From the NCBI GenBank assembly GCA_963702845.1, contig OY969763.1:1792001-1856000 (forward strand): a stretch of 64,000 nt of DNA, read 5' to 3'. The DNA is from an uncultured Verrucomicrobiae bacterium. Lineage in GTDB: Bacteria; Verrucomicrobiota; Verrucomicrobiia; Limisphaerales; Palsa-1400. Position 1 is the stretch's first letter. Each line of letters starts with the position of its first letter. A program made the position numbers and the translations under genes. This document shows positions 20,504 to 48,169 of the stretch, one piece after another. A model generated the notes under the pieces. It made no database searches. It was not told the DNA's origin and worked only from the letters and a program-made list of their open reading frames with translations.

Positions 20504-20663
20504 GCCTAACCAGAGCGCTGGAGATTTGAACAAATTATTTTGCTCTTCGCTGCCGCGAAGTGCGGACGGCGAGTTGACGATTCCTCCTTCGCCATGGCTA
20601 TGGAGGACGGGGCTTTTACAATCCGTGAGTCAGTGGGCGGCCGCCGTTGAGTTTGAGTTAGGT
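20504..20663 (+). repeat. attC site enlarged by two internal insertions
   Basis: GCCTAAC...CGGACGGCG...CGCCGTTGAG...GTTAGGT, 160 bp; homologous to the attC at 20897. Confidence 0.75.
20521..20559 (+). mobile_element. 39-bp mini-insertion element, copy 1 (inside attC)
   Basis: GAGATTTGAACAAATTATTTTGCTCTTCGCTGCCGCGAA. Confidence 0.7.
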
Positions 20664-20667
20664 GAAC

Positions 20668-20892
20668 ATGAAGAACATTCAGCTATCTTCGCAGGAGAGT
20701 GACCGCAAAGTCGCAAGAATTGCATCACTCATCTTTATGGGTGTCGCTTGGCTGTCTCTGACGGCATTTTTAGCCTGGTACCTCACCACAAATGGAAATG
20801 CGTTGAGCCACAGCATCGTCGTCGTTAGCATCTTTTCGATTCCCCTGCTGCTTATTCCATTTCAGTTGTGGCGCTATTTCAAAAACAAATGA
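20668..20892 (+). CDS. Cassette 4: small two-TM membrane protein
   Basis: 74 aa with two hydrophobic helices, bounded by attC sites. Confidence 0.7.
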   Translation: MKNIQLSSQESDRKVARIASLIFMGVAWLSLTAFLAWYLTTNGNALSHSIVVVSIFSIPLLLIPFQLWRYFKNK

Positions 20893-20896
20893 CTAA

Positions 20897-21028
20897 GGCT
20901 AACCAGAGTGCTGGAGATTTGAACAAATTATTTTGCACGTCGCTACCGCGAAGCGCGGACGGCGGGACGACGCCGCCTTTGCAATCGTTGAGTCAGTGGC
21001 CCGCCGCCGCTGAACTGAATATTTAGGC
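20897..21028 (+). repeat. attC site with 39-bp insertion and mutated core
   Basis: GGCTAAC...CGGACGGCGGG...CCCGCCGCCGCTGAAC...TTTAGGC (G>T in the core). Confidence 0.7.
20914..20952 (+). mobile_element. 39-bp mini-insertion element, copy 2 (inside attC)
   Basis: GAGATTTGAACAAATTATTTTGCACGTCGCTACCGCGAA. Confidence 0.7.
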
Positions 21029-21044
21029 GACTAGCAAACGTCAC

Positions 21045-21209
21045 ATGAAACGCCATTTTTACGCAACAAACGAGGATTTGCTACAGGTTATCGAAATGCC
21101 GAACGAAAGCACAAAGTTGCCTATACGCTCACAGGCGCTTACGACCAATCCGCCCAAATCGCTCGTGGCGCCATCATTGATGGAACGCAGACCGGCGAAA
21201 TTGACCTGA
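21045..21209 (+). pseudogene. Truncated fifth cassette gene remnant
   Basis: ATG 16 bp after the last core site (MKRHFYATNEDLLQVIE...); short, with no following attC. Confidence 0.45.
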
Positions 21210-21334
21210 ATTGATCAGAGCGGTCTCGCGATATCCGTTTCGAATCGGGATGCAGAGCATCGCCGACAAAATGGCTGGCGGCGCGAGGTCGACTAAGTGA
21301 GGTCCTTAATCGGAGTCGCGCGACGTGCGCTGGG

Positions 21335-21820
21335 CTACTGTTTAACTTCAGTCGCGATCCGTTTCTCCGGCGGTTTCCAATTGACGTTGATGCCGCCGGC
21401 GGTGATGAGTTTGCAGCTCTGGATTTCTTTCAGGGCATCGGTCTCGGTCACCGGCTTGGGCGCGACGTGCAAGAAAGTCGCTCCGGGAAGGACGGTCAAT
21501 CGGATGTATTGGACCTGGTTTTCTTTGAGTGTCAGTTGCGTTTTTTCGGCCGATTCGGTCGTGCATTGAACCGTGTAATCGCCGGGTTTGCGGTCGACAT
21601 AGAAGAAGCAGCCGGGCTGACATTTGCCGATGGCTGTGTCGTTGATGAAAACTTCCGGCTGCGTCATGGTGCCGAAGAGCTTGCTCGGGCGATAGAACCA
21701 GACGCGGGCGTCGCCTTTGGGCGGCGGTGTCAGGGCGGTGGTATAGGTTTTATAACTTGGTCCGCTGGCGCAGCCGGCAAAGCCGGCGCAAAGAATAACG
21801 AGAAGTGTGACATGTTTCAT
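21335..21820 (-). CDS. DUF2846 domain lipoprotein
   Basis: Lipobox FAGC; ARVWFYRPS; PGCFFYVDRKPGDY; RBS GGAGG before the ATG at 21820. Confidence 0.85.
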   Translation of the reverse strand: MKHVTLLVILCAGFAGCASGPSYKTYTTALTPPPKGDARVWFYRPSKLFGTMTQPEVFINDTAIGKCQPGCFFYVDRKPGDYTVQCTTESAEKTQLTLKENQVQYIRLTVLPGATFLHVAPKPVTETDALKEIQSCKLITAGGINVNWKPPEKRIATEVKQ

Positions 21821-22010
21821 CTGGTTCCTCCTGTTAACGTTGATTTTACAACCAACGTTGTCGGCGCACCGCCGACGCGTGGAACGAAACACGAAAAGCC
21901 TTGGTTTGACAGTGTGGATTTTCTTGGTTGTTGGCTGCTGGAATCCCTGTGGTTGATTGAGGCTTTGTCCGCGTCAACAAGCGAGTGCGGTGCGTCAAAT
22001 CGGGACGAAC

Positions 22011-22108
22011 AACAGAGGCCGTGAGCACGCGGTTGCAGGAATGAGGCCGATTGGTTGCAGGGTTAGGTCGATGGCAGAAAACCGCTTGCTCACGCGCGCG
22101 CCTCTGTT
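22011..22108. repeat. REP doublet (inverted pair)
   Basis: AACAGAGGCCGTGAGCACGCGGT ... ACCGCTTGCTCACGCGCGCGCCTCTGTT. Confidence 0.7.
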
Positions 22109-22166
22109 CGCGTTCGCGCTGCGAACTTACTTGACCGGAATGGCCTTCCATTGCCAAATCACATCT

Positions 22167-23246
22167 ATGCGAACATACGTTCTCTCCAAATTGCGCCTAC
22201 TCTGGCCCGTCCTTCTCTTGAGTTTAATCATCAGTGGCTGCGTCACGCGTCCGGGAACAATGGCGAAGCGCACGGGAGATGAAATTATGGTTGCGGGCAA
22301 CTACGTTCACACCGGCACGCCGGTTGTGCTCTGGACGGATCCGGGTGGTTACGACGCGTATCGCGTGGATCGCCGCTTTGCGCCGATCGCTGATTCGGGC
22401 TGGGACAAGACCAAGGAAAAGGTCAAAGGGATGGATTCGCCGGCCCGCTATTCGATGCGCCAAGGCGATCTGAACGATGCCGAGATCGAACGCGTTCGTG
22501 GCGGTGGCTGGGATTTGCCAACGCTTCAACGTGTGGTTGACCAATTCGTAATTCATTTCGACGTCGCGGGCACGTCTCGCACTTGTTTCAAAGTTTTGCA
22601 CGATTCGCGCGATCTGAGCGTTCATTTCATGCTGGATGTCGACGGCACTCTCTATCAAACACTCGATTGCAAAGAGAAAGCATGGCAGGCGACGATTGCC
22701 AACGGCCGCTCGGTCGGCATCGAAATCGCGAACATGGGCGCGTATCCGTTGAACGACAACAAGACTTTGGGCGAATGGTATAAAACAGATGCAACCGGCC
22801 ACACCGCGTTGACGATTCCGGCACGTTACGGAAAGAATCCGGTGCGTACGGCTGATTTCCACGGCAAGCCGGCGCGCAAAGACGCGGTCGTCGGTGACAC
22901 GCAGGGACATCACCTCAAGCAATATGATTTCACGCCGCAACAATATGAGGCTTTGGCGCACTTGACGGCGACCTTGTGCACGGTGTTTCCGAAGATCACC
23001 TGCGACTTTCCGCGCGACAAAGATGGTAAATTAATTCCTCACAAATTGCCGAAAGAGGAACTCGATAATTATCACGGTGTGCTGGGTCACTTCCACGTGC
23101 AAACGAACAAGACCGATCCCGGTCCGGCGTTTCAGTGGGATTACGTGATCGGTCGCGCGCGCCAGCTCATGGGCAAACAGCCTGAACACGGCGCTGAAGG
23201 ATTGGTGCATCCGGTTCAGGCCACGTTGTTGTACGACAATCGATAA
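22167..23246 (+). CDS. N-acetylmuramoyl-L-alanine amidase (Amidase_2), lipoprotein
   Basis: Lipobox ISGC; FVIHFD, LSVHFMLDVDG, SVGIEIAN, LGHFHVQTNKTDPGP. Confidence 0.9.
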   Translation: MRTYVLSKLRLLWPVLLLSLIISGCVTRPGTMAKRTGDEIMVAGNYVHTGTPVVLWTDPGGYDAYRVDRRFAPIADSGWDKTKEKVKGMDSPARYSMRQGDLNDAEIERVRGGGWDLPTLQRVVDQFVIHFDVAGTSRTCFKVLHDSRDLSVHFMLDVDGTLYQTLDCKEKAWQATIANGRSVGIEIANMGAYPLNDNKTLGEWYKTDATGHTALTIPARYGKNPVRTADFHGKPARKDAVVGDTQGHHLKQYDFTPQQYEALAHLTATLCTVFPKITCDFPRDKDGKLIPHKLPKEELDNYHGVLGHFHVQTNKTDPGPAFQWDYVIGRARQLMGKQPEHGAEGLVHPVQATLLYDNR

Positions 23247-23251
23247 TTGAA

Positions 23252-25282
23252 TTAGTGGTCAGGACGGTGTTGCTGTGCTGGCGGCGGTGCAGTGTGCACT
23301 TGAACGCTGGGGGCCGCTGCCGGTGGAGCAGGCGCAACATGCACCTGCGGTGGCGGCGCTGAGACGTGGGCAGGCGGGGCTGACACATGCGGAGGCGGCG
23401 CGGAGACGTGCGGAGGGGCGGAAACGTGTGGCACTGGTTCAGCGTGTGGCACTGCCTCCGGCGGTCTTGTTGCTCCCGCAGGTTCATGAACGGGTGCCTG
23501 AGGTGGTGCTTCAACTCGCGGAGCTTCAGGGGAAGCGCGATGAACTTCGGGCGCTGGTGTCGTCACGTGCGGTGCGGGAGCAGGCTTCGGGTGTGGAACT
23601 TCCGTTACTTGCGGATTCGTCGGATGAGGAGTCTCTGTCACGCGCGGAGTTGTGCTCGGATGCGGCACCTCTGTGATATGCGAATTAGGCTTTGGGACCT
23701 CTGTTGCTTTCGGATTTGTTGGTCGCGGAGTTTCGGTTACGCGCGGTGTTTCACTCGGGTGCGGCACTTCACTGGGATTTGTCGTTTTAGGAACCTCACT
23801 CACTCGCGGGTTGGTCGGATGAGGCGTTTCTGTCACGTTCGGAGTTGTGGACGTTCCCGGTGTGTGCGTCACGTTCGGATTGGTCGGATGCTGAGTTCCG
23901 GTGGTGCGACGAGTATTGCTCGTGCGCGGCGTTTGCAACGGTTGTTGCGTGGTCGTGTGCGGTTGCGTCGTTGTGGTCGTGCGCGGTTCTGTTGTCGTGG
24001 TTCGCGGAGTGGTCGTAGTTGTGTTTCGTCCCGCGGGCGCGTTGTTCACGCGGCCGGGACCGGTGTTATTGATCGGTGTAGTTGGAACCGAACGAGCATT
24101 CGGAGGAAGCCGGTGCCCAACAATTTGCGTGTTCCGAACAGGCGTCGGCGCTTGTTGCGGACGGACGATGGAAACTTGTGATCCATTGCGCACCACTCCA
24201 GGACGTGCCACGCGCGGGTCTTCTGTCGAGGTTCGAACTTGCGCCACATGCACTGGTCCCGTGTAACGCTGGACGGTTTGACGCGAGATGCCAGGATTGC
24301 GGGCATAGTTATTGTTTACGACGGTGACGTTGTTGATTACGCGCGTGCGGTTGTAAAACTGGTTTACGTCGTGGTGAGACAGCTCGTGGCGGTGATAGTC
24401 GCCGTGGAACATATCTCCAAAATGGATGAACGTGAATAAGTTCGCGCCGATTCCAAATCCAATGTCAGCGCCCACACCGAAATGGAATCCTGCCCGGCCA
24501 TAGCCGCGGAAGCCGGAAGGCGGCAGCGGTGCCCAGCCGCAATAGTCGCCGGAATCGCGCCACACGACCCAGCTCGGCGCCCAAATGGTGTCCGGGAACC
24601 AAACCCATCCGCACGACGCCTGCCACCAGCGGCCGTAGTGGAATGGTGCCCAACCCCAGTTGTAGCCGGATTGCCAATACCAACCGTCATCGCAATAAAG
24701 CCAATTGCCATTGTCGCAGTAAGGTTGCCAGTTCACCGAGGTGCGGACTACAGACGGCTGCCAGCACCAGCCGTAGCCTTCGAGGTAAATCCAGCTACCG
24801 TACGGTCGTAAGTCATTATAAAATGAAGCGACCTGCGGCGGTGCCTGGTCCGGTGCGACCTGCATGACTTGAGCCGATTGATCTGAATAGGGCTGTTGAT
24901 TGGCATAACCGTTCGCATACGCATCCGGCGGATTGACTTGCGCCGTTTGGTCGGTCGGAGGGCTTTGGTCGTAATTTTGTGGCTGCTGAGGATAATTCGG
25001 TTGCGCGGTGTTTTGCGTTTGCCCCTGCGCAATAGCGGTATCGTGCGCGATCATTGCAGAAATGATCGACTGCGGCACGCCGTTGTTTTGCAGATATAAT
25101 ATGTCGTCCGCATTTAGATTATAGGTCGCGCTGGAATTATTGACGTAACCTTCGAGCACTTGCTCGCTGACGCCCGATTGCGCCATTCGCAGAACGTCTT
25201 GGCTGGCGGAATTGATTGCGCCCGATGTCGAGAAACCAACGATTGCAATACACACCACAGGAAAGATGACCCAAGTTCTCAT
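23252..25282 (-). CDS. Secreted DUF6600-like Trp/Gly-rich domain protein with long Pro/Thr/His-rich tail
   Basis: Signal peptide; FYNDLRPYGSW...WQPYCDNGNW...WGWAPFHYGRW...WAPSWVVWR...GWAPLPP; GGAGG RBS. Confidence 0.85.
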   Translation of the reverse strand: MRTWVIFPVVCIAIVGFSTSGAINSASQDVLRMAQSGVSEQVLEGYVNNSSATYNLNADDILYLQNNGVPQSIISAMIAHDTAIAQGQTQNTAQPNYPQQPQNYDQSPPTDQTAQVNPPDAYANGYANQQPYSDQSAQVMQVAPDQAPPQVASFYNDLRPYGSWIYLEGYGWCWQPSVVRTSVNWQPYCDNGNWLYCDDGWYWQSGYNWGWAPFHYGRWWQASCGWVWFPDTIWAPSWVVWRDSGDYCGWAPLPPSGFRGYGRAGFHFGVGADIGFGIGANLFTFIHFGDMFHGDYHRHELSHHDVNQFYNRTRVINNVTVVNNNYARNPGISRQTVQRYTGPVHVAQVRTSTEDPRVARPGVVRNGSQVSIVRPQQAPTPVRNTQIVGHRLPPNARSVPTTPINNTGPGRVNNAPAGRNTTTTTPRTTTTEPRTTTTTQPHTTTQQPLQTPRTSNTRRTTGTQHPTNPNVTHTPGTSTTPNVTETPHPTNPRVSEVPKTTNPSEVPHPSETPRVTETPRPTNPKATEVPKPNSHITEVPHPSTTPRVTETPHPTNPQVTEVPHPKPAPAPHVTTPAPEVHRASPEAPRVEAPPQAPVHEPAGATRPPEAVPHAEPVPHVSAPPHVSAPPPHVSAPPAHVSAPPPQVHVAPAPPAAAPSVQVHTAPPPAQQHRPDH

Positions 25283-25536
25283 GAAAACCTCCACCCCAAG
25301 TTACGATTGTTTTGGCGCTGGTCAAAGGGGGTTCCACCTGAATTTATTGGTCACATTGAAAGTTTTTTTTGAAGAAAAGGCAGGTTTGGTTTCGTAAAAA
25401 AGTTGACCGAACCGTTCATTGGCAACAACTTCTAGAGAGGGTAGGCAAATCAATTTGAACATTCGTAAGGAAAACCCTGTCATTAAGTTGAAATTACGGC
25501 GTACTTAGGCGACCCTATTCCGCTAAACAAATTGAA

Positions 25537-28089
25537 ATGAGATTAAGATTCTTCTCCATTACGGCACGGCTTTTTGCCGTTCTCGCTGCTTCGGCAATTT
25601 TCGCTCACGCAGAGCAAAAACCGTCGCAGGAACAAATCGAAAGCATCATCGCTCGCGTCACGGGTGAGCTGATGCAGCGCTCCCACTTCTCGCATCACCC
25701 GCTGGACGCGGAGATGTCGGCGAAGTTTTTGGACCGCTACCTCGACACGCTCGATCCGGTTCACCTGACCTTTCTTCAGAGCGATGTTCAGGACTTCGAG
25801 AAATATCGCACCACGCTCGGGCCGCTGACCAAAAAGGGCGACACCAAGCCGGCGCACGTCATTTTCGAGCGTTTTCTCCAACGCGCCGAACAGCGTAATG
25901 AACTGTCCACCAACCTGCTCGCGAAAGGTAATTTCGACTTCACCGGTCACGAAAAATTCCTGGCTAGTCGCAAAAACGCGCCCCAACCCAAGGACATGGA
26001 CGAAGCGAAAAAGATTTGGGAAGAAGAAGTGCGCTACGAATTCTTGCAGGAAAAACTTTCCGCGCCTGACATCAAATTGTCCGGTGATTTGAAGTCTGAG
26101 CCGTCGAAGTTCGTCATTACGATCACGACGAATAAAATGCATCCGCAGAATTTCGATCTGTTGCCGAAGAATTTTTACGATGCTGATGGCAAACCCGTTG
26201 CGTTCCTTCACGTTGAAGCGAATAAAACGAACGCAATCGTCGAAATTCCGAAGTTAAAAGGGGACAACCTGCAAAACTTCAAACGACCGTTCTATAGCGA
26301 AGACGGCAAAGAAATCGGTTCGATCATCTCGACGAATAAATCGACCAATTTCGTTGGCACGGTGCAGTTGAATCGCAAGAACTTCACGGACATTACGGAT
26401 ACATTGATCAAGCGCTACGGCCGGTTGATGAAGAGTTACAAGGATCTCGACCCGGATTCGGTTCTCGAACTGTATCTCGGTGCGCTCGCGCGCGCCTACG
26501 ACCCGCATTCTGAATACATGGGCCATGCCCAAACCGAGAACTTCAACATCTCGATGAAGCTTTCGCTCTTCGGCATCGGCGCCGTGCTCACCTCGGAAGA
26601 CGGTTTTTGCAAGGTCAAGGAACTCGTGCCCGGGCCTGCGATGAAGAGCAAAAAGATCAAGGCAAACGACAAAATTGTCGCTGTCGCGCAAGGTGATAAA
26701 GAAGCCGTCGATGTCATCGGTATGCGTCTCGATAAGGTGGTTGAGCAGATTCGCGGCCCGAAGGGCAGCGAAGTGCGCCTGACCATCGTTCCGTCCGATG
26801 CCCCGGATACTTCCACTCGCGAAGTGGTCACGCTCTATCGCGATCAAATCAAACTTGAAGACCAGGAAGCCAAAGCGCGTGTCTATGATACGAAGGCCGC
26901 CAATGGCAATCCCGTTCGCATTGGTGTTATTGATTTGCCATCCTTCTACGCTGACACGACGGGCGGCAAACGTTTGGCTAGCCAGGACGTCGCGTCCACC
27001 GCGACCAGCACGACGCTCGATTGCGCGCGTTTGATTCGTCGCATGAAAAAAGAGGGCGTCACCGGTATCATTCTCGACCTCCGCAAAAACGGCGGCGGTT
27101 ATCTCGAAGAAGCCATTGGTTTGACCGGGCTGTTCATCACCAAGGGGCCGGTTGTTCAGACCAAAGAACATAACGGTGAAATCGTCACTGAATCTGATCC
27201 TGATCCCGGCGTTCTTTGGGACGGTCCGTTGATCGTGCTCACGAGTCGCTTCAGCGCTTCAGCCTCGGAAATTTTGGCCGGTGCATTGCAGGATTACGAC
27301 CGTGCGTTGATCGTCGGTGAAAAATCGACCTTTGGCAAAGGCACTGTGCAAACGCTCGCCGGGCTGGCTAATTATATTGATTCGAGCCGCCTGCCCAAGG
27401 ATTACGATCCCGGCACGCTGCGCCTGACCATCCGCAAGTTCTATCGCGCGGGCGGTTCCTCGACGCAGCTGAAAGGCGTCGTTTCCGACATCGCGATGCC
27501 ATCCGTTCACGACGAATGGGAAGTTGGCGAAGGTTCGATGGAAAACGCGCTGCCCTGGGATGAAGTGCCCAGCGCCGATCCAGATAATCTCCGTCGCGTG
27601 AAGCCATACGTCACTGCCTTGCGCGAACACTCGCAAAAGCGCGTGAACACGGAAAAAGATTTTCAATACGAACGCGATCGTATCGCCGAGTACAAGAAAA
27701 CTCAGGCCGACAAAACTGTCTCTTTGAACGAAGCTGATCGCCTCGCCGAAAAGAAGCAGCAACAGGTCAAAGAAGATGCGCGCACGAAGGAAATCGCGTC
27801 TCGCAAGAAGCCGACGGAAAAAGTTTACGAAATCACTCAGGAAAACGTAAACCTCTCGACATTGCAGCCGCCGAAATCGAAAAACAGCGACACCGCGAAA
27901 AACGACAGTCCCACTCCCGCTCCCACGACCAGCGCTGCTGCCACCGATGAGGACGCGCCTGACGTCGGCGAAGAAGCCGTGGCCAACGAAGCCCGCTTGC
28001 GCGAGGCAAAGAACATCCTGATCGATTACATTTCGATGTTGAAGAAGGCCGACTCAGTCGTTGCGCACGAAGCTACGACTGCGAAGTAA
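25537..28089 (+). CDS. prc: Carboxy-terminal processing (tail-specific) protease Prc
   Basis: YDPHSEY, GIGA, PDZ (IRGPKGSEV), LDLRKNGGG, SASASEI, TFGKGTVQ, STQLKGV. Confidence 0.93.
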   Translation: MRLRFFSITARLFAVLAASAIFAHAEQKPSQEQIESIIARVTGELMQRSHFSHHPLDAEMSAKFLDRYLDTLDPVHLTFLQSDVQDFEKYRTTLGPLTKKGDTKPAHVIFERFLQRAEQRNELSTNLLAKGNFDFTGHEKFLASRKNAPQPKDMDEAKKIWEEEVRYEFLQEKLSAPDIKLSGDLKSEPSKFVITITTNKMHPQNFDLLPKNFYDADGKPVAFLHVEANKTNAIVEIPKLKGDNLQNFKRPFYSEDGKEIGSIISTNKSTNFVGTVQLNRKNFTDITDTLIKRYGRLMKSYKDLDPDSVLELYLGALARAYDPHSEYMGHAQTENFNISMKLSLFGIGAVLTSEDGFCKVKELVPGPAMKSKKIKANDKIVAVAQGDKEAVDVIGMRLDKVVEQIRGPKGSEVRLTIVPSDAPDTSTREVVTLYRDQIKLEDQEAKARVYDTKAANGNPVRIGVIDLPSFYADTTGGKRLASQDVASTATSTTLDCARLIRRMKKEGVTGIILDLRKNGGGYLEEAIGLTGLFITKGPVVQTKEHNGEIVTESDPDPGVLWDGPLIVLTSRFSASASEILAGALQDYDRALIVGEKSTFGKGTVQTLAGLANYIDSSRLPKDYDPGTLRLTIRKFYRAGGSSTQLKGVVSDIAMPSVHDEWEVGEGSMENALPWDEVPSADPDNLRRVKPYVTALREHSQKRVNTEKDFQYERDRIAEYKKTQADKTVSLNEADRLAEKKQQQVKEDARTKEIASRKKPTEKVYEITQENVNLSTLQPPKSKNSDTAKNDSPTPAPTTSAAATDEDAPDVGEEAVANEARLREAKNILIDYISMLKKADSVVAHEATTAK

Positions 28090-29030
28090 GCAATTGTTCG
28101 CCGATGCGGATGGGGTTGCCCTGAAGAAATTCAGCGGCACCCATCTGCCGGCCGCCTTCGCGTTGTAACCTGACAATGCGCAAAGCGTCCGCTCCACACG
28201 CGACGGTGATTCCTGAATTGTCAGCCGCGAGCACGGCCCCGGGTTTGCCTTGAGCATCCGCGACCTCCGCTTGCCAGACTTTTAACAGGCGTGCCTTGTC
28301 GTTGGTTTTTTGGAAAGTGAAAGCTCCCGGCCACGGCGTGAATGCGCGAATTCGGTTTTGCAACACGCGAGCGGGTTGCGTCCAATCAAGCTGGCCGTCT
28401 TCCTTTTTGATTTTTTTAACATGCGTCGCATTGAGCGTGATCTTGCGCGCGCGCCTGGATTTTTCCCGCCGCAAAATCAATCAAGGTCGGTAGTAAAAAC
28501 TCCGCGCCGACAATCGCCAACTTATCGTGCAACGTCGCCGCGTCGTCATCGGCCTCAATGGGGATCGCGCCCTGGCTGATAATCGGCCCGGTATCCAACC
28601 CTTCATCCATCTGCATGATCGTGACGCCAGTTTCAGGATCGCCATTGAGCAACGCCGCCTGGATCGGGGCCGCGCCGCGGTATTTTGGCAGCAACGACGT
28701 GTGAACGTTAATACAACCAAACTTCGGCGTGTCCAAAATGGCACGTGGCAATATTTGGCCGTAGGCAATGACCACGATGTAATCCGGCGCGAACTGTTTG
28801 AGTTGTTCGATGAACTGCGGTTCGCGAGCGCGTTCCGGTTGCAGCACAGGAATGTTGGATGCCAGTGCGAGTTTCTTCACTTCGGACTGTTGCAGCTTGA
28901 GGTCCCGTCCTTTCGGTCGATCTGGCTGCGTGACGACCGCTTGCACGACAAATTCCGGCGAATTCAGCAACGCCTGCAAACTGGCGCAAGCCAGTTCGGC
29001 GGTTCCCATGAAAATGACGCGCAAAGGCAT
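28073..29030 (-). CDS. fmt: Methionyl-tRNA formyltransferase (frameshift near 28420-28480, probably a sequencing error)
   Basis: VIFMGT, VVTQPDRPKGR, INVHTSLLPKYRGAAPIQ, MDEGLDTG; C-terminal domain KIKKEDGQLDW...RAFTPWPGA in another frame. Confidence 0.93.
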
Positions 29031-29034
29031 GAAG

Positions 29035-29100
29035 CAGTATTGAGTATTCAGTATCCAGTTTTCAGTAAAGCGCAGTTATGAACTGATTACTGATCGCTTA
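29035..29100. repeat. Heptamer tandem/inverted repeat (AGTATTG/AGTATTC/AGTATCC/AGTTTTC ... ACTGATT ACTGATC)
   Basis: Intergenic 7-nt periodic arms in inverted orientation. Confidence 0.55.
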
Positions 29101-29103
29101 AAA

Positions 29104-29298
29104 CTACTGGATGGTCACAGCCGGTCGCTCTTGCGACACAGTCCGTTCCCCGAGAGAAGTTCCGCACTTGCGGCAAAGATATTCGTAAAGTTCGCCCGTT
29201 GGCAGCAGCAACAGCAATCGTTCGCGCACCGGTTGCGAGCATTTGCATTTTGGGCAATACAGTTCGCTGGCGACGAATGATCCAAATTGTTGTCCCAT
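29104..29298 (-). CDS. Small zinc-ribbon protein
   Basis: CPKC...CRKC, 64 aa. Confidence 0.75.
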   Translation of the reverse strand: MGQQFGSFVASELYCPKCKCSQPVRERLLLLLPTGELYEYLCRKCGTSLGERTVSQERPAVTIQ

Positions 29299-29326
29299 AA
29301 TCAATTTTCCCCGCGCTTCAAGAACG

Positions 29327-29908: not shown

Positions 29909-29942
29909 AACATCAGCTCGAACCTTGCCGTTGTATTTTTAA

Positions 29943-30995: not shown

Positions 30996-31024
30996 TCAGT
31001 GGACTTGGATAACAGACAGCGATT

Positions 31025-33804: not shown

Positions 33805-33838
33805 TCATATCTGACGAGCCAAAACCGCTGATTCGTCT

Positions 33839-39044: not shown

Positions 39045-39185
39045 CGGTTGCAGTTTGCAGACTGAGAACACTCTGGCAATGCGCTCAGCATTTGTCGATT
39101 TCAAAGGGCCGGGCCAGCGGCAAAAAATTCGTTTGGCGAAGCGCGCTGTTGACCGGAATGCGCCATCGCCGATCGATTGACGTTG

Positions 39186-40571: not shown

Positions 40572-40837
40572 AAGAACACACTATATCCCTACTCAACAAA
40601 GCCGGTTCACTTCAAGGAGAACCTGCGATGAACGGTCAGGATTATTCGATTGTCGATGGTGATTTACTTTGTGGACTAGTCAAGTGGACCGCTTGCGGGC
40701 GCTAGCGAATGCTGTATGATAGAGGTGTCACGGTGCAGCAGGGGGGAACACAAAGAGCAACTGAGCAAAACCCTGACAAACAAATACTGTCGCCATCCGA
40801 TTGACCTCGTAGGGAATCACCTTATAGGCTCTGCAGC

Positions 40838-42829
40838 TTGCACACCCAAGAGTTAATGCCGCCGTGCTGCTTTGATGAAACGCTCGAAGTGCCATGTCTT
40901 CCAACCGCGCTATTACAGACTCAACAAAAACTTTCGCAGACGGCCCAAAAACTTAAGCTGGCTATCGACGCCGCTGAGATGGGGACTTTCGAATGGAATC
41001 TTAATAACGACCACGTTGAATGGAATCCTTACCACTATCGGCTTTACGGTTACGAACCAGACGAACACCCGGTCAATTACAAATTCTGGCATAAACATGT
41101 TCTGGCGGAGGATGTGGACGGGGAATTGAAAGCATACGAAACAGCCAAAGCCAATAAGACACCATGGTCGAACGAATATCGTATCCGCCGAAAAGATGGT
41201 CAGATCCGATGGCTCTCGGTCCGCGGGCAATTTGTCTACAATGAAAACGGCGCGCCCGGTCGTGGTTATGGCGTTGTTTTCGACGTCACTGAAAAAAAAG
41301 AACAGGAAGAATCTTTGCGTCGTAGTGAATCCATTGCCCTTTCTCGCCTGGCTGAAATACAAACCCTATATTCTGCCTCGCCGGTCGGACTGGGGTTCGT
41401 CGACCGTTCGATGCGTTATGTCCGTGTCAACGACACGCTAGCGCGCGTCAACGGTGTCTCAACAAGCGAGCATGTCGGTCGAACGGTTGAGCAAGTCGTC
41501 GGCGCCGAAATTTGGAAAAGTATCAAACCGATCTACGACCGCGCCGTCAACGGCGAAACTATCCTGAACATGGCTGTTGAAGGCGCGCTCACTGCCGACC
41601 CGGAGCATTGGCGGCATTGGCTGGTGAGCTATTGTCCGGTTTGCACTGCTAACGGTCTGACGCTTGGCGTCGCTCTCGCCATTCAAGAAGTGACCGAACT
41701 GCGGAAAGCCCAGGAGGAATTGCGCCTGAGCGAAGCCCGGCTCAGGGCAGCTAAGACAGCAGCACGACTCGGCGTTTACGAGTGCGATCTTATCGCTAAT
41801 ACCACTCGATGGGACGAGAGAATGTGCGAGTTGTGGGGATTCGATCCCGATTTTGAAGTGACACCTGAAAAGGCGTTTGAATGCATTCATCCCGATGATG
41901 TCCAATTCGTCCGAAATGCGATGGAACGGGCGTTCGACCAGCCTGTCACAAAAAACTTTTCCGCCGAATATCGCGTGATAAGCGCGAAAGACAAGAAGGT
42001 GCGATGGATTTCTGCGAACGCCTTGCCCCTGTCAAAGGAAGGTAAGCGCCTTGTCGGTACCGTCCAGGATATCACCGAACGTAAAATGTTCGAAGCCGAG
42101 CTGGAACGTTCGGTTGCGGAACGCACGGCTTCGTTGCGTGAGGCCATGGCGCAGATGGAAGAGTTTTCGTATACGGTCTCTCACGATCTTCGCGCTCCGT
42201 TGCGCGCACTGAGAGTTTATGCAGACGTTCTTCTTGAGAATTTTGCCAAGGATTTGCCAGAGGAAGCGCGCGAATGTTTAAGCCGTATCGAAGTGAACGC
42301 CAATTCGCTCGATAAAATGGTGGTGGATGTCTTGACGTTCACGAAAGTTGCGCGAACAGAGATGAGAATGGAACGCATCGCCATGGACCAGTTGGTGCGC
42401 AAGATCGTCGAACAACATTTGGCGATGGCACATTCCAAGGTGACGATTCACGTCGAACCGTTGCCAGACGTTCTTGGACACGAGCCCTCACTGACGCAGG
42501 CGTTCTCGAATCTGTTGAGCAACGCGGTGAAATTCGTTGCGCCGGGCGTGGCTCCTTTTGTGCGCGTCTGGAGCGAACGCCATGGAGACAAGATTCGTTT
42601 TTGGGTCTGCGACAACGGCGTTGGCATCGCGCCAAAGTACCATCACCGTCTTTTCAGCATGTTCGAGCGGATTCATCCGGATTTGATCTACGAAGGAACG
42701 GGCGTAGGACTGGCCATCGTACGGAAAGCCGCTGAACGGATGGGGGGCAGAGTGGGTGTCGAATCCGACGGGACGCACGGCAGCAGATTTTGGATAGAAC
42801 TCCAAGCTCCGATTCCCGATGAAAACTGA
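40838..42829 (+). CDS. Multi-PAS sensor histidine kinase
   Basis: 3 PAS/PAC; FSYTVSHDLRAPLR; NLLSNAVKF; DNGVGI; GTGVGLAIV. Start uncertain. Confidence 0.92.
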   Translation: MHTQELMPPCCFDETLEVPCLPTALLQTQQKLSQTAQKLKLAIDAAEMGTFEWNLNNDHVEWNPYHYRLYGYEPDEHPVNYKFWHKHVLAEDVDGELKAYETAKANKTPWSNEYRIRRKDGQIRWLSVRGQFVYNENGAPGRGYGVVFDVTEKKEQEESLRRSESIALSRLAEIQTLYSASPVGLGFVDRSMRYVRVNDTLARVNGVSTSEHVGRTVEQVVGAEIWKSIKPIYDRAVNGETILNMAVEGALTADPEHWRHWLVSYCPVCTANGLTLGVALAIQEVTELRKAQEELRLSEARLRAAKTAARLGVYECDLIANTTRWDERMCELWGFDPDFEVTPEKAFECIHPDDVQFVRNAMERAFDQPVTKNFSAEYRVISAKDKKVRWISANALPLSKEGKRLVGTVQDITERKMFEAELERSVAERTASLREAMAQMEEFSYTVSHDLRAPLRALRVYADVLLENFAKDLPEEARECLSRIEVNANSLDKMVVDVLTFTKVARTEMRMERIAMDQLVRKIVEQHLAMAHSKVTIHVEPLPDVLGHEPSLTQAFSNLLSNAVKFVAPGVAPFVRVWSERHGDKIRFWVCDNGVGIAPKYHHRLFSMFERIHPDLIYEGTGVGLAIVRKAAERMGGRVGVESDGTHGSRFWIELQAPIPDEN

Positions 42830-43289
42830 ATTGAGCAACACAATATTGCTGGTCGAGGATAGCCGGGACGATGCTTACGCTTTTCGCTACGCTCTCAAGC
42901 GCAGCCGCATCATGAATCCGCTGCAAGTCCTCACCGATGGTCAGCAGGCTATCGACTATTTGTCAGGCGTGGGCCACTATGCTGATCGGAACGTCTACCC
43001 GCTTCCGTTCGTCATTTTTCTCGATTTAAAGTTGCCCTACGTTGACGGCTTTGACGCGCTTTCATGGATCCGCGCACAGCCTGAGCTCCGGTCGATCGCA
43101 GTCATCATGCTAAGCGGCTCAGCCGAAGATCGAGACCAGGATAGAGCACATGAACTCGGGGCTCGCCGCTACCTCGTGAAACCGCCAACGGCCGAAACGT
43201 TGCTTTCGGTTTTCGATTCACTCCTCAGCTTCCCGCACTCTAATCACTGGCTTCCGAAGAATACCGCTTCTCCCGCCGCTCGCGTTTAA
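42819..43289 (+). CDS. Single-domain response regulator (Rcp1-like)
   Basis: ILLVEDSRDD, FLDLKLP, YLVKP; overlaps the kinase. Confidence 0.92.
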   Translation: MKTELSNTILLVEDSRDDAYAFRYALKRSRIMNPLQVLTDGQQAIDYLSGVGHYADRNVYPLPFVIFLDLKLPYVDGFDALSWIRAQPELRSIAVIMLSGSAEDRDQDRAHELGARRYLVKPPTAETLLSVFDSLLSFPHSNHWLPKNTASPAARV

Positions 43290-43492
43290 CGCACCTTTCC
43301 GTTAAGACCATTCGGTAAAACACTTTATAGGCCAAAAGTGAAAACCGCATTAAATTCAGGGTGGTATCATTTTATTGCGGTATTGCGCGACGGTTGAAAA
43401 CGTTCCGGTGCTTGGTGTTTGGGATTTAGCTTTCCTCGTTACTTCCCTTGTTCTCTCGCCAATTCAACGTCATTCCGCTACCGTTCGAGCGG

Positions 43493-44113
43493 ATGAGTCT
43501 GGATACGGAAGCGCTTCTGATTGCCCGATGCCGACGCGGCGATGCCAAGGCATGGGACGAATTGTTTGATGCGCATTATGCTGCCACCGGTCGATTCGTG
43601 TTCCAACTCGCGCCCGATTTCACACACGAAGATGTTGAGGAAGTTTGCCAGGAGGTTTTTCTGGCGATCATTCACAATATCAAAACGTTCGAAGGCCACA
43701 GTCATTTGCAAACGTGGGTGTTCCGCATCGCCGCCAATAAAGCGCGCGATTATCGGCAACGTCAGCATGCCGCCAAACGCGGTGGCGGCATAGCGCCGCT
43801 GTCGTTGCAGGCGGAACATCCGGAAACAGGGCTGACGATTGACCCGCCCAGCACCGCGCTGGCTCCGGACGACTCGCTGATGACGGCGGAACGCGCAGGG
43901 CAGGTCGGCGACGCGCTTGAGGCTTTGGGCGGCCCGTGCCAGGAGATCATTGAGTTGCGTTATTTTGCCGATTTGAGCTATGAAGAAATTTCCACGGCAC
44001 TGAAACTGAATCCGAAAACGGTCAGCTCGCGCCTGAGTAAATGTTTGGATCGATTGGAAGAAGTGATGCGCGTTGTGATTTGTGGGAAGAAACCGAAGCC
44101 TTTTTCCGTCTAA
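43493..44113 (+). CDS. ECF sigma-70 factor
   Basis: GDAKAWDELF, EDVEEVCQEVF, TWVFRIAANKARD, LSYEEIS...KTVSSRL. Confidence 0.92.
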   Translation: MSLDTEALLIARCRRGDAKAWDELFDAHYAATGRFVFQLAPDFTHEDVEEVCQEVFLAIIHNIKTFEGHSHLQTWVFRIAANKARDYRQRQHAAKRGGGIAPLSLQAEHPETGLTIDPPSTALAPDDSLMTAERAGQVGDALEALGGPCQEIIELRYFADLSYEEISTALKLNPKTVSSRLSKCLDRLEEVMRVVICGKKPKPFSV

Positions 44114-44118
44114 CTATT

Positions 44119-45456
44119 ATGCCGTCAGAGCCGCCAAACGAAAACATGGATAAGGTGCTGAAGGCGTATGCCAAGAAGCGACGGGAAGATGCGTCTCAAA
44201 TCGAGATGGATCTGGCCACTCGCAACATGCTCCAGTCGGAAGTGAAGCGGAGGCTGGGCGAAGTCCCTGTACCGGCGACGGCGCGTTCGCGTCCACGATT
44301 TGCATGGTGGCCGCAAATGATTATCGGCGTGGCTAGCGCGGCGGCTCTGGCAATTGCAGTGTTCTTTTGGAAATTGCCGTCGCGTAACGAAAGGACTGAT
44401 TCAAGTGTCGCGATGGAGAACAGGGCACCTGCTACTTTTGACACGACCATCCCTGCATCCAAGTCCAAGGCCGAATCCGAAGAGTTTAAGAAAAACGAAG
44501 CGCCGGTTGCGACGTTTAAGGACCAAGTTGCGCCGTCGTCGCCTGCGAAGGAGCTGAGCCGAAGCGACGATTTGGCGAAACAAGCTGAACCGCACCGTCG
44601 CGAGTCGGACACTCTTAAGGTGGGCGACGTTCCGGTGGTAACGAATAGTATCGTGGCGAGTGCGGCACCGTCCGCGCCGACGACAATTCCAGCTCCAGCT
44701 ATCGCGTCAGCCGCACCAGTCGAAGCGCCGTTAGCTAAATCCGTAGTAGCCGACGCCGCGCCCGCGACTCCTGTGCCACCAGCTGCCGCGCCAATCGGAT
44801 CAATCGCTGCGTCGACTGAGGCCCCGAAACTCGCAACGCGAAATATTGCGAAAAGCGAATCTATGTATTTTGATCGCAAGACCGACGCGATCCAACAGAA
44901 ACAATCCCAACGGCAACGCATGCAGTTTTCTCAGGTTGATAACAGGGCGCAATATCGAGCGAATCTGAACTCGCCGCCGTTGCCGAAGGTGCTGACGAAT
45001 TTTGCACTCGATCGCACCGGCAGCAATGTGTTGGTAGTCGATGCGGATGGTTCGACTTATTCCGGCAATGTTCTTCCCGCGATGGCAGGTTATGGCGGCC
45101 AGCTCGGCATCGCCAATGGAACCGGCAAATCAGCATCAACTGCGGCGGCTGTAGGTGGCGAGGCGATACCGGATGACAACTTCGCTTTTAAGGTGAGTGG
45201 GTATAACAAAAAGCTGCGGGCGAAAGTTATTTTCAGCGGCTCCGTTATCAACGGTGCGCAAAATGGAATCGTTGCCGGTGGCGCAATCCCGCAAACGCAA
45301 TCTGGTGCTCAAAACCAAACCAGTAACACGCCGCAACAATCGCCGGCTCAGAATGCGCAGAACGCCCAGAACGTGATGCTGAATGGTCGTGTGCAAGTCG
45401 GCAAGACGACGGAATTTCAAATCCAGGCGGCTCCGGCAGCTGCCTCGACGAAGTAA
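44119..45456 (+). CDS. Putative membrane anti-sigma factor
   Basis: 5 bp after the ECF gene; short cytoplasmic N-term, one TM, long Ala/Pro-rich periplasmic region. Confidence 0.7.
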   Translation: MPSEPPNENMDKVLKAYAKKRREDASQIEMDLATRNMLQSEVKRRLGEVPVPATARSRPRFAWWPQMIIGVASAAALAIAVFFWKLPSRNERTDSSVAMENRAPATFDTTIPASKSKAESEEFKKNEAPVATFKDQVAPSSPAKELSRSDDLAKQAEPHRRESDTLKVGDVPVVTNSIVASAAPSAPTTIPAPAIASAAPVEAPLAKSVVADAAPATPVPPAAAPIGSIAASTEAPKLATRNIAKSESMYFDRKTDAIQQKQSQRQRMQFSQVDNRAQYRANLNSPPLPKVLTNFALDRTGSNVLVVDADGSTYSGNVLPAMAGYGGQLGIANGTGKSASTAAAVGGEAIPDDNFAFKVSGYNKKLRAKVIFSGSVINGAQNGIVAGGAIPQTQSGAQNQTSNTPQQSPAQNAQNAQNVMLNGRVQVGKTTEFQIQAAPAAASTK

Positions 45457-45500
45457 CAAAAAGATTGCCTGCACTGGCAAACGAGCGAGAAATTACTGTA

Positions 45501-46202
45501 ATGGCATTGCTCTTCAGGAGACCAAAACGTTTTCGCTACGAGTACGATCTGCTCCAGCAGGGCACGACGTTGATCGCCGGCGTTGACGAAGCCGGGCGCG
45601 GTCCGCTGGCTGGCCCGGTCTTTGCCGCTGCTGTCATTTTCCCGCAGGAGTGGATTGCCGATCATCTGCCGAAGCCGTTGCGCAAAATCAACGACTCGAA
45701 ACAACTCACTCACGAGGCGCGTGAAATGTTTTTTACCGAACTGACTTCGCGGCCCGAAGTGCGCTACGGTATCGCGCAAGTGGATGTTGCGTTGATTGAT
45801 CAGATCAACATTCTGCAAGCGAGCCATCGCGCGATGAATCTCGCTCTCGCGCAATTGAACCCGGCGCCGCAGCACGTGCTGGTTGACGGCCTGCGCGTGA
45901 ACTCGATGCAGTTCCCGCACACACCGATTGTGTCCGGCGATGCACTGAGTTATTCGATTGCCGCCGCCAGCATTCTTGCGAAGGTGAGTCGCGATCGGTT
46001 GATGGTCCAATTCGACGCGCAGTATCCGGGATACGGTTTCGCCGCTCACAAAGGTTACGCGACGCCCGACCATTACGCGGCCATCAAAGAACGCGGTGCG
46101 TGCCCGATCCACCGCCAAAGCTTTGCGCCGTTTCGGCCTGTGCAGGTGGAGATGCTTGTCGATCCGAATGCGCCAGCCGCAAGGGTAGCGCCTCAGGCAT
46201 AA
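45501..46202 (+). CDS. rnhB: Ribonuclease HII
   Basis: AGVDEAGRGPLAGPV, NDSKQL, LVDG, SIAAASILAKVSRD, HKGY. Confidence 0.96.
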   Translation: MALLFRRPKRFRYEYDLLQQGTTLIAGVDEAGRGPLAGPVFAAAVIFPQEWIADHLPKPLRKINDSKQLTHEAREMFFTELTSRPEVRYGIAQVDVALIDQINILQASHRAMNLALAQLNPAPQHVLVDGLRVNSMQFPHTPIVSGDALSYSIAAASILAKVSRDRLMVQFDAQYPGYGFAAHKGYATPDHYAAIKERGACPIHRQSFAPFRPVQVEMLVDPNAPAARVAPQA

Positions 46203-46204
46203 AC

Positions 46205-46630
46205 ATGAGCTTCCTCGCTCGATTAACATTCTGGCGTCGAGAAGAGATCCATTTGAACTTGCGCCATGGCAGGTTGGGCGAAAATGCCGCGAAGAAATAT
46301 CTCGGTAAAAATGGCCTAAAATTTCTTACTGCCAATTTCAAATCCAAACGCGGCGAAATCGATTTGGTGTTTCGCGATGCCGACTGCCTTGTGTTTGTTG
46401 AAGTGAAAACGCGCTCGTCGGAAGATTGGACTCGGCCAGCAGCGGCTGTTGATTTTGATAAGCAACGGAAGTTGTCCTTGTGCGGACTCGATTACCTGCG
46501 GCTCTTGCGGAACCCGCAGATCAAATTTCGGTTCGATATCGTTGAGGTATTGTTGGCCGATGGCGTTGTCTCCGAAATTCGCCATTTGCCAAACACCTTC
46601 ACGCTCGCTCAGCCGCTGCGTTGGGGATGA
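46205..46630 (+). CDS. yraN: YraN/UPF0102 family endonuclease-like protein
   Basis: GRLGENAA, GEIDLV, LVFVEVKTR, RFDIVEV. Confidence 0.92.
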   Translation: MSFLARLTFWRREEIHLNLRHGRLGENAAKKYLGKNGLKFLTANFKSKRGEIDLVFRDADCLVFVEVKTRSSEDWTRPAAAVDFDKQRKLSLCGLDYLRLLRNPQIKFRFDIVEVLLADGVVSEIRHLPNTFTLAQPLRWG

Positions 46631-47491
46631 TTATTTCAGCGACGCGAATTGCGGGTGTTTGATGAGCTTCTCCCAACTCGCATGCGTCAGTGGCACCTGG
46701 CGGTAAACGCCATCCCACATCGGCTCGGCACTTCCAGAGATGCGCGCGCGGCGAAGCCAATCAAGCCCGAGTGGTTCGGTGAGCAACGAGAGCGTGTTCG
46801 CGGCAATTGTTGTTTCTTCCTTTTCGCCAGTCGCATGTCCGGCACCGACGTAGAACCCGGCAAGGAGCAGGGTGACTCGCAGCATCGTGCTGCGCGAATA
46901 GGTTGGCACGGCGCAGGGTTGCTTGGGATTCAATAATCCGAACACATTCGAAAACACTTGTGGCGACCACATCGTCGGATTCTTTGCGAGTGAGAAAGGA
47001 TCGTAGAGGATCGCATCGGGTGTCGACGTGCTTCTTGTCTTTGCCTCGTTAGTCAGCCACAGCGGAAAATCAGCGACACGCAGCTCCCAGTGAATCGATT
47101 GCTTGCCGTTTAAAAACTGAGTTTGTCCATTGGCCAGCAAATCGCGAATAGGCTCTTCATAACCGGCGACATATCCCAGTTCGCGCGCGTGCTGCACCGC
47201 AAAGTTCAGAGGCTCGATTGTTCGATCGAAGCTGATGACGCGCAGTGAGCAGTTGATGTTAGCTGTTGCGGTGAACACCGTCAGAACATTTGCCGCCGAC
47301 CCGAGTCCCACGTCCCAAATGACGAATTCCCGTCCATGCGCTGCGATGCGATCCGGCAAGTGCAATTGGCGCACATAGAGAGCTTGTGCTTCGGCTGCGG
47401 GGCCGATTACGGGATGAAAAGTTTCATCCTCTGCAATCGCATGCACGCTGAAGGTGCCGTTCGCTAGTTGGACCAATTCGTAATCGCTCAC
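46631..47491 (-). CDS. MnmC/MnmD-type SAM methyltransferase (tRNA mnm5s2U-like)
   Basis: ETFHPVIGP..EA..LYV, WDVGLGSAAN, ILYDPFS..KNPTMWS, TYS, GEKEETT. Confidence 0.8.
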   Translation of the reverse strand: MSDYELVQLANGTFSVHAIAEDETFHPVIGPAAEAQALYVRQLHLPDRIAAHGREFVIWDVGLGSAANVLTVFTATANINCSLRVISFDRTIEPLNFAVQHARELGYVAGYEEPIRDLLANGQTQFLNGKQSIHWELRVADFPLWLTNEAKTRSTSTPDAILYDPFSLAKNPTMWSPQVFSNVFGLLNPKQPCAVPTYSRSTMLRVTLLLAGFYVGAGHATGEKEETTIAANTLSLLTEPLGLDWLRRARISGSAEPMWDGVYRQVPLTHASWEKLIKHPQFASLK

Positions 47492-47561
47492 CGAGTCAGT
47501 CTAATGAAGGCAGAGATTTTTTACTTCTTAATTCTGCCGAGTTCGTCCTTAATTCGTGGCC

Positions 47562-48041
47562 ATGGATCCTTTGCTCAAGCTCCTGCACGAAAACGCGGCG
47601 CTCAAACCGGCGCAGCTTTCGAAAATGCTCAACGTCACTGAAGCGGACGTCGCCGCGAAAATTAAGGCTTACGAGGACGACAAAGTTATCCTCGGTTATC
47701 GCGCGGTGTTGAATGAAGAAAAGACGGGTGACGAGATCGTTCGCGCCGTTATCGAAGTAAAAATCACGCCAGAGCGGGGCGGGGGATTCGATCGGTTGGC
47801 CGAGCGCATCGCCAAATACAGCGAGGTCCACTCCTGCTACTTGATGTCTGGCGGATATGATTTGCTCGTGATCATCGAAGGGCGAAACCTGCGCGAAGTC
47901 GCAACGTTCGTTTCCGAAAAGCTCGCCACGGTGCAGGGCGTCATTTCTACGGCCACCCATTTCATGCTCAAGACCTACAAAGAGCAGGGCGTGCTCATGA
48001 ACGGTGAGCAGAATGAAGAGCGGTTGGCTGTGTCGCCGTAA
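47562..48041 (+). CDS. Lrp/AsnC family transcriptional regulator
   Basis: VILGYRA, AVIEVKITP, CYLMSGGYDL, TATHFMLK. Confidence 0.92.
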   Translation: MDPLLKLLHENAALKPAQLSKMLNVTEADVAAKIKAYEDDKVILGYRAVLNEEKTGDEIVRAVIEVKITPERGGGFDRLAERIAKYSEVHSCYLMSGGYDLLVIIEGRNLREVATFVSEKLATVQGVISTATHFMLKTYKEQGVLMNGEQNEERLAVSP

Positions 48042-48083
48042 GGTTACGGCGAAATACCTAGAACTCTGGCAATGTTGACGCCT

Positions 48084-48169
48084 GCCGATTTGGAAATCGG
48101 CGATACGGGAGATTTGAACAAATTATTTTGATGTTCGCTCCCGCGAACCGGTTTGGAAACCTGCGATAC
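48084..48169. repeat. Two-hairpin REP element interrupted by the 39-bp element
   Basis: GCCGATTTGGAAATCGGCGATACGG [39 bp] CCGGTTTGGAAACCTGCGATAC. Confidence 0.75.
48109..48147 (+). mobile_element. 39-bp mini-insertion element, copy 3 (inside REP)
   Basis: GAGATTTGAACAAATTATTTTGATGTTCGCTCCCGCGAA. Confidence 0.7.

What the first reader, a model, noticed from the sequence alone, without database searches (positions are those of the whole stretch)
20521..48147. A 39-bp mini-element that appears to target DNA hairpin elements (attC sites and a REP)
Seen: three copies of exactly 39 bp at 20521-20559, 20914-20952 and 48109-48147. They share an identical first 22 nt (GAGATTTGAACAAATTATTTTG), 4 variable nt, then TCGCT-N-CCGCGAA, with two mini-hairpins (ATTTG-AA-CAAAT; TCGC-N4-GCGA). 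Removing it restores a contiguous attC arm (CAGAGYGCTG|GYGCGGACGGCG) in two cases and a contiguous two-hairpin REP (GATACGG|CCGGTTTGGAAACC) in the third. There are no terminal inverted repeats and no convincing target duplication. Established: attC and REP both act as ssDNA hairpins and are targeted by IS110/IS1111 elements, group IIC introns and HUH (Y1/RAYT) enzymes. Inference: this is a non-autonomous, structure-targeted element, or the scar of one, that parasitises both site classes and may inactivate attC. The two attC copies may come from one event, so there are at least two independent insertions.
Basis: partly seen in the sequence, partly recalled or inferred. Interest (0 to 1): 0.85.

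Follow-up and report, generated by a model that had tools for sequence, protein, structure and literature searches.

The report
Tiny mobile insert inside DNA hairpins
A roughly 40-base piece of DNA with no gene has copied itself into many unrelated hairpin-forming repeats, into integron cassette sites and into copies of itself in one family of Verrucomicrobia, usually overwriting two bases of its target; it behaves like a very small selfish element whose enzyme is still unknown.

Summary
The three copies are real (0 expected by chance), but the unit here is 41 bases, not 39. It replaces the host dinucleotide CA, so deleting 39 bases does not restore natural empty sites. The genome holds 27 curated copies: 24 in six REP-like repeat families, 2 in attC, 1 unassigned. 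It is mainly a REP parasite; attC is a minor host in a genome with no integron integrase found. Relatives of 36-41 bases occur patchily in 7 of 31 genomes of the family, none in 382 genomes of other families, and also nest inside themselves. Conserved parts are an AT-rich core and an 8-base mini-hairpin that reads GCGNNAGC on the minus strand, which is the attC bottom strand and the GTAG strand of most host REPs. That points to a single-stranded DNA intermediate. Best guess: moved in trans by a RAYT-type HUH transposase (0.45). No partner gene was found; IS110 and intron origins are disfavoured. The scan noted similar micro-inserts in other genomes, not shown to be this family.

The parts
20521..20561 (-). 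Micro-element copy 1 (41 nt) in place of the CA of the attC L'' arm; core 20528-20542, mini-hairpin 20549-20556 (GCGNNAGC on minus strand)
20914..20954 (-). Micro-element copy 2 (41 nt), same position in the next attC; core 20921-20935, mini-hairpin 20942-20949
48109..48149 (-). Micro-element copy 3 (41 nt) in place of the CA of REP family A; core 48116-48130, mini-hairpin 48137-48144
20504..20663 (+). attC-like site 1 (R'' 20504-20510, R' 20657-20663), host of copy 1 and of a second micro-element
   Evidence: natural empty relative at G000:C1:4836676
20897..21028 (+). attC-like site 2, host of copy 2; R' degenerate
20583..20608 (.). Second, unrelated 26-nt hairpin micro-element in the terminal loop region of attC site 1; a near-identical copy lies inside a REP-D repeat elsewhere in the genome
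48079..48170 (-). REP family A double hairpin (GTAT/GTAG tag on minus strand), host of copy 3, between convergent Lrp/AsnC and class V aminotransferase genes
   Evidence: same REP family flanks a RAYT gene at G000:C1:3663677
19630..19722 (+). attC-like site without the element (upstream member of the array)
   Evidence: sequence printed; boxes read by eye
20236..20335 (+). attC-like site without the element; R'' degenerate
   Evidence: boxes read by eye
19075..19635 (+). Cassette ORF, Imm42 family
19735..20241 (+). Cassette ORF, 168 aa, no Pfam match
20347..20487 (+). Short cassette ORF (46 aa) ahead of attC site 1
   Evidence: read by eye
20668..20892 (+). Cassette ORF (74 aa from the ATG) ahead of attC site 2, no Pfam match

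Best explanation
It is a family of non-autonomous micro-transposons of 36-41 nt. The working form is the minus strand as single-stranded DNA: a GCGNNAGC mini-hairpin followed by a conserved AT-rich tail. A host-encoded HUH tyrosine transposase of the RAYT/Y1 class, acting in trans on exposed single-stranded hairpins (REPs, attC bottom strands, other repeats, the element itself), joins it into the target. The target usually loses 2-3 bases, which are replaced by the element's own end bases. Once inside a repeat or an attC, the filled form is further copied with its host. Shown: family, anatomy, empty and filled alleles, junction rule, strand, nesting. Inferred: single-stranded intermediate and active targeting. 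Guessed: the enzyme. That the element is copied as a unit I put at about 0.85; the confidence given is for the whole statement.
For: The same insert is in seven host classes in one genome with a fixed junction. It nests inside itself and forms a tandem array (L093, L095, L097, L099-L102, L113). G005 holds a natural simple/nested pair differing by exactly 36 nt (L162 vs L157). Overwriting recurs: in G013, 14 of 15 empty hosts read GCCC and none GCAG or GCAC, while filled ones read GCAG or GCAC; in G012, 9 of 9 empties read RGAC while 5 of 6 inspected filled ones read RGAG. The loop reads GNNA on the minus strand in 72 of 75 copies and on the plus strand in 0; 34 are GNYA, which suits DNA better than an RNA GNRA loop (inference). 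20 of 27 genomic copies carry GCGNNAGC or GCGNAGC, against 0.9% background per window for GCGNNAGC; this is the nuclease-resistant mini-hairpin DNA motif (PMC13037366). In 17 of 17 copies in REP A, B and D the GTAG tag or a one-base variant lies on that same strand (read), the strand TnpA-REP recognises (PMC8266576). In attC it is the recombinogenic bottom strand (PMC8946536). The genome has at least 9 Y1 genes, several flanked by the host REPs.
Against: No transposase gene is bounded by the element's halves: 7 Y1 loci in G000 and 21 in G005, G012 and G013 were inspected, and only single nearby copies were seen. Y1 genes are in 31 of 31 genomes, so co-occurrence says nothing. The RAYT flanked by REP A was not found in G013, G002 or G021. 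The element has no GTAG tag of its own. I recall HUH transposition as exact, without target loss. In the 5 REP-E copies the GTAG-like word lies on the opposite strand. The automated flank-repeat test was only modestly positive, 18 of 27 against 8 of 27 random sites. No excision or circle was observed.
Confidence: 0.45

Rival explanations
1. Mosaic repeat module spread by ectopic recombination or gene conversion among REP-like repeats and attC sites (BIME-style shuffling), with no dedicated mobilisation; the 'overwritten' bases are co-converted donor flanks.
For: Junctions are fixed within a host class and differ between classes. Left-flank bases travel with the element. Element-rich genomes are often repeat-rich. 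The three copies in attC L'' share a C-x-C linker not seen in the other copies counted, as expected from one founding event followed by copying.
Against: Hosts share only about one base on each side of the junction, too little for homologous exchange. The exact 36-nt self-insertion and more than ten unrelated hosts need many founding events. G017 has 5 REP-A copies and no element.
Confidence: 0.2
2. Replication-coupled copying: the mini-hairpin plus AT-rich tail acts like a single-strand initiation signal for a primase or polymerase, and the short product is patched in at forks stalled on hairpins, skipping 2-3 template bases. No transposase is needed.
For: Mini-hairpins occur at phage G4 and ssiA priming sites (PMC13037366). 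Target loss of 2-3 nt, no duplication and no partner gene fit a template switch.
Against: No strong leading/lagging bias: 17 of 27. The short, nearly constant deletion looks more like enzyme geometry than slippage. No primase link was tested.
Confidence: 0.15
3. A protein-binding or regulatory module kept by the host inside REPs (like the IHF-binding L motif of E. coli BIME-1, recalled) and copied only passively.
For: The first 9 core bases are nearly invariant across four genera without covariation. 26 of 27 copies are intergenic.
Against: It is patchy within genera, shows no preferred orientation to neighbouring genes, breaks host stems and nests in itself.
Confidence: 0.1
4. Miniature derivative or scar of an IS110/IS1111 element or a group II intron that targets attC and REP.
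For: A 391-aa IS110 element sits in attC sites of the same family a few bases from the element's position. IS1111 members target attC and REP (PMC11187229).
Against: The IS110 ends do not match the element beyond a 5-6 base word. IS110 was not found in 5 of the 7 element-bearing genomes, including G013 and G005 (assemblies 67-94% complete). Each IS110 has one target, whereas this has many. No reverse transcriptase was found in G000.
Confidence: 0.07
5. Assembly or base-calling artefact at hairpins.
For: No sequencing run could be used to check the window.
Against: The family occurs in 7 genome assemblies and in metagenome contigs with lineage-specific variants.
Confidence: 0.02

Closest known systems
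REP / BIME / REPIN elements with RAYT (TnpA-REP) transposases
   Same: Short, extragenic, multi-copy, protein-less, strand-specific hairpin; lives in GTAG-tagged REP clusters; RAYT genes present (PMC8266576, PMC3733652, PMC3116915).
   Different: No GTAG tag, no long palindrome, not an inverted doublet, does not bracket a RAYT gene. It inserts into REPs of several families, into attC and into itself, and overwrites target bases.
IS1111-attC and REP-targeting IS110 elements (ISKpn4, ISPa11, IS621)
   Same: Occupy fixed positions in attC and REP hairpins (PMC11187229); one such element is in this genome's attC sites.
   Different: No gene or guide RNA, ends unrelated, many targets, not co-distributed with IS110.
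Non-autonomous IS200/IS605 derivatives (PATEs; definition recalled, search listing only)
   Same: Hairpin-bearing, no terminal inverted repeats, no target duplication, presumed single-stranded movement.
   Different: Only one conserved hairpin, about 40 nt in all, no matching full-length parent found, target bases lost.
Mini-hairpin DNA GCGNNAGC (structural motif; phage G4 origin, ssiA, N4 promoter)
   Same: The element's minus-strand hairpin matches the motif.
   Different: In the passages read it is a priming or promoter feature, not the core of a mobile repeat.
CALIN (attC cluster lacking an integron integrase; name from earlier scan notes and recall)
   Same: The host array at 19075-21028 has four attC-like sites after short same-strand ORFs and no IntI was found.
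   Different: This describes the host array, not the element.

Membership tests
GTAG-family REP | GTAG tetranucleotide directly 5' of the stem | tested here: not met
   No conserved GTAG in the alignment on either strand
GTAG-family REP | 20-40 bp palindrome with a stem of about 5-13 bp | tested here: not met
   Only a 3-5 bp stem covering 8-14 nt of about 40
GTAG-family REP | Multi-copy and extragenic | tested here: met
   27 copies, 26 intergenic by a crude ORF call
GTAG-family REP | Copies bracket a cognate RAYT gene | tested here: not met
   28 Y1 loci inspected, only single nearby copies; one filled REP lies beside a RAYT-like gene at G000:C1:3771382
GTAG-family REP | Bound and cleaved by TnpA-REP | not testable with these tools
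   Needs an in vitro assay
REPIN | Two inverted REPs with a spacer forming one long hairpin | tested here: not met
   Single asymmetric unit
MITE | Terminal inverted repeats | tested here: not met
   Ends are not complementary across copies
MITE | Target-site duplication | tested here: not met
   Target loses bases instead
IS110/IS1111 mini-element | Ends match an autonomous IS110 in the genome | tested here: not met
   Ends of two of the three IS110 types read; only a 5-6 base word shared; ends of the single-copy type at 4397021 were not delimited
IS110/IS1111 mini-element | One specific target sequence | tested here: not met
   Seven host classes in G000
IS110/IS1111 mini-element | Transposase present where the element is abundant | tested here: not met
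   Not found in G001, G002, G005, G013, G021; incomplete assemblies can lose IS copies
IS200/IS605 non-autonomous derivative | Left and right end hairpins matching a full-length element | tested here: not met
   One hairpin; 5' hairpin pairs in 9 of 75; no parent found
IS200/IS605 non-autonomous derivative | Exact insertion next to a short target word, no loss | tested here: inconclusive
   Exact in the G005 pair; overwriting in G000, G012, G013
Group IIC-attC intron scar | Reverse transcriptase or intron RNA domains in the genome | tested here: not met
   No PF00078 match in G000; no Rfam family over 18500-21500
IS91/ISCR derivative | Y2 transposase present | tested here: not met
   None in G000, G002, G013; one each in G005 and G012
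CALIN (host array) | Several attC sites after short ORFs, no IntI | tested here: met
   no dedicated attC model was run

The most novel reading that the evidence does not exclude
A distinct class of minimal selfish DNA (36-41 nt) built on a nuclease-resistant DNA mini-hairpin. It moves as a single strand by a substitution-insertion reaction, overwriting 2-3 target bases, that matches no described transposase chemistry. It parasitises any exposed hairpin, including other selfish repeats, integron sites and itself. Its presence at one position in attC sites of three different cassettes in two species would also mark attC sites being copied onto new genes.
Probability: 0.25. Interest if true: 0.85.

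Novelty: new variant of a known kind. Interest (0 to 1): 0.6.

Why it matters
How REP-like repeats spread is still poorly understood (PMC8266576 abstract). This family offers a substrate short enough to order as an oligonucleotide, with dozens of natural empty and filled alleles and an unusual, predictable junction, so the mechanism can be tested directly. The copies in attC act as a heritable tag: three different cassette genes carry the insert at one L'' position, which bears on how new cassettes get their attC sites. The host effect is probably small, since nearly all copies are intergenic and the attC sites here are orphans.

Tried and rejected
Viral contigs: 0 matches with two patterns. 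The first collection pattern was genus-specific and missed the G005/G012/G013 variants; its Flavobacteriaceae hit (L014) and L021 look like chance. Long repeats of G000 gave no IS end like the element, but the output was cut and only part was seen. Peptide reading: one frame is open and net gains are often 36 or 39 nt, but core-to-hairpin spacing is 4 or 5, some gains are 35 or 40, and copies are intergenic; rejected. LexA, IHF and promoter matches were judged by eye against recalled consensus sequences and rejected; no scan was run. The REP-C empty-allele pattern was too loose (130 mostly chance hits); no clean G000 empty was found. The attC census pattern gave 15 noisy hits, so no attC denominator is given. 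The loop count included false positives and was redone. Covariation on alignment A1 was blurred by misregistered loops; stem counts are partly fixed by the search pattern. The 69 of 113 count is partly circular and is not used.
Full report
1. Observation. The 22-nt head occurs three times in the window at the stated positions, with 0 matches in 100 shuffles. The 39-nt stretches are as described. The window is G000:C1:1792001-1856000 of a 6.03-Mb single-contig genome. A genome record carrying the same element is titled as a Verrucomicrobiales MAG (L013).

2. Family in this genome. The head has 15 matches at up to 3 mismatches. A weight matrix gave 26 copies above score 14, against a best control score of 10.2 on the reversed genome. 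One more came, giving 27 curated copies; a 28th weak model hit was not inspected. By inspection the hosts are REP A (4), REP B (8), REP C (1), REP D (5), REP E (5), a further short repeat F (1), attC (2) and one unassigned. An automated test of flank repetitiveness was weaker: 18 of 27 against 8 of 27 random sites. 26 of 27 are intergenic by a crude ORF call, with no clear orientation bias to genes, and 17 of 27 are on the leading strand.

3. Junctions. REP A: 19 of 19 empties read CA and 3 filled copies have 41 nt in its place. REP B: 7 of 7 empties read CA; filled copies have 41 or 42 nt. REP D: 26 empties have 2-3 variable bases; 4 filled copies have 41-42 nt. Repeat F and attC likewise trade 2 bases for 41. 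REP E gains 36 nt net. So the unit in the window is 41 nt and it overwrites two host bases. Deleting 39 nt gives alleles not seen among these empties.

4. Relatives. A covariance model found copies in G002 (9), G001 (1), G013 (40), G005 (12) and G012 (7), and single weak hits in five more genomes, of which G021 is real by pattern. That makes 7 of 31 genomes of the family, in four genera, each patchy. A strict pattern hit 5 of 401 genomes of the order, all in this family, and 0 of 382 in other families. In G005, G012 and G013 a 36-nt form sits in further unrelated repeats, inside itself and in a tandem array. G005 holds a simple and a nested allele in the same host differing by exactly 36 nt. 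Overwriting recurs: 14 of 15 G013 empties read GCCC and none GCAG or GCAC, while filled ones read GCAG or GCAC; 9 of 9 G012 empties read RGAC, while 5 of 6 inspected filled ones read RGAG. G002 has the element at the same L'' position of a different attC subtype, after a third cassette gene.

5. Anatomy. The unit is a loosely conserved (G/C)A(G/C) start, four bases, a core GAACAAATTRT, and a hairpin 4-5 bases after the 15-nt core block. The 3' loop reads GNNA on the minus strand in 72 of 75 and on the plus strand in 0; the loop was unconstrained in the search, the inner stem partly constrained. 17 of 27 genomic copies read GCGNNAGC and 3 read GCGNAGC on that strand, against 0.9% background per window for the first form. 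This is the mini-hairpin DNA motif, described as very stable and nuclease-resistant and found at single-strand priming sites (PMC13037366; abstract and passages). Nearly half the loops are GNYA, which I read as favouring DNA over RNA (inference). The same strand is the attC bottom strand, which IntI recombines (PMC8946536; passages). It carries the GTAG-type tag in 17 of 17 REP A, B and D copies; TnpA-REP recognises that strand and cuts at C|T (PMC8266576; passages). REP E (5 copies) does not follow the tag rule.

6. Effect on attC. The host is a four-site array of short same-strand ORFs, one of the Imm42 family. No integron integrase passes the cut-off in this 89.8%-complete genome. In predicted DNA folds both filled sites lose R-box pairing, whereas the natural empty site keeps it; site 2 lacks it even without the insert. 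The insert probably disables attC, but these sites are orphans, so tolerance explains its presence as well as parasitism does. The three attC copies share a C-x-C linker, which suggests one founding event later copied onto different cassettes (inference).

7. Enzyme. IS110: a 391-aa element occupies attC sites a few bases away, but its ends differ, and IS110 was not found in 5 of 7 positive genomes. No reverse transcriptase or IS91-type enzyme was found in G000. Y1 transposases are in 31 of 31 genomes and several are flanked by the host REPs. None is bounded by the element, and the REP-A-flanked RAYT, which is split over two frames in G000, does not track the element. A RAYT-type enzyme in trans is therefore the best fit by strand and host, but it is not shown (0.45). 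Rivals are repeat-to-repeat conversion (0.2), replication-coupled priming (0.15), a host binding module (0.1), an IS110 or intron derivative (0.07) and artefact (0.02).

8. Comparison and novelty. It works like a REP/REPIN-type non-autonomous element but fails the defining REP, REPIN, MITE and IS110-derivative tests (PMC3733652, PMC3116915, PMC11187229; passages). Rfam has no match. Paper searches showed no description of this family; most subscription journals are outside that library and no supplements were read, so a listing in a REP catalogue supplement cannot be excluded. Earlier scan notes describe similar micro-inserts in other genomes; I did not check whether they are the same sequence family, and look-ups by sequence and place found no note on this one. 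Verdict: a real, apparently undescribed micro-element family, a new variant of a known kind, interest 0.6.

Noticed in passing
window 20583-20608; G000:C1:5792821: A second micro-element (26-nt hairpin) lies in the same attC and, elsewhere, inside a REP-D repeat near the position used by the main element; about four related copies in the genome.
   Followed up: partly
G000:C1:1729971, 2186551, 3666306, 4071630, 4307662, 442519: Six copies of a 391-aa IS110-family element; five abut attC-like sequence on at least one side, one does not.
   Followed up: partly
G000:C1:97423, 1600580, 2835248: A second IS110 type next to attC-like sites; two of three copies have a truncated 318-aa frame.
   Followed up: no
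G000:C1:3336866 and 5844478; L016; L043:1224-1266: Longer cousins sharing the 9-nt core but with different 3' hairpins, in REP-B-type repeats and in a second attC of G002.
   Followed up: no
G000:C1:3662900-3664000 (L184): The REP-A-flanked RAYT gene has a duplicated 5' part and is split over two frames.
   Followed up: partly
G000:C1:5838251-5840133 and 4753825: Filled REP-B copies flank a duplicated 1.9-kb segment that looks like terminase gene fragments by eye.
   Followed up: no
L015:515-719; L113:1-140: Tandem amplification: three 81-nt filled units in a metagenome contig, and five 24-nt head repeats at a contig end in G005.
   Followed up: no
window 17767-18462: 231-aa ORF without a Pfam match upstream of the cassette array.
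   Followed up: no
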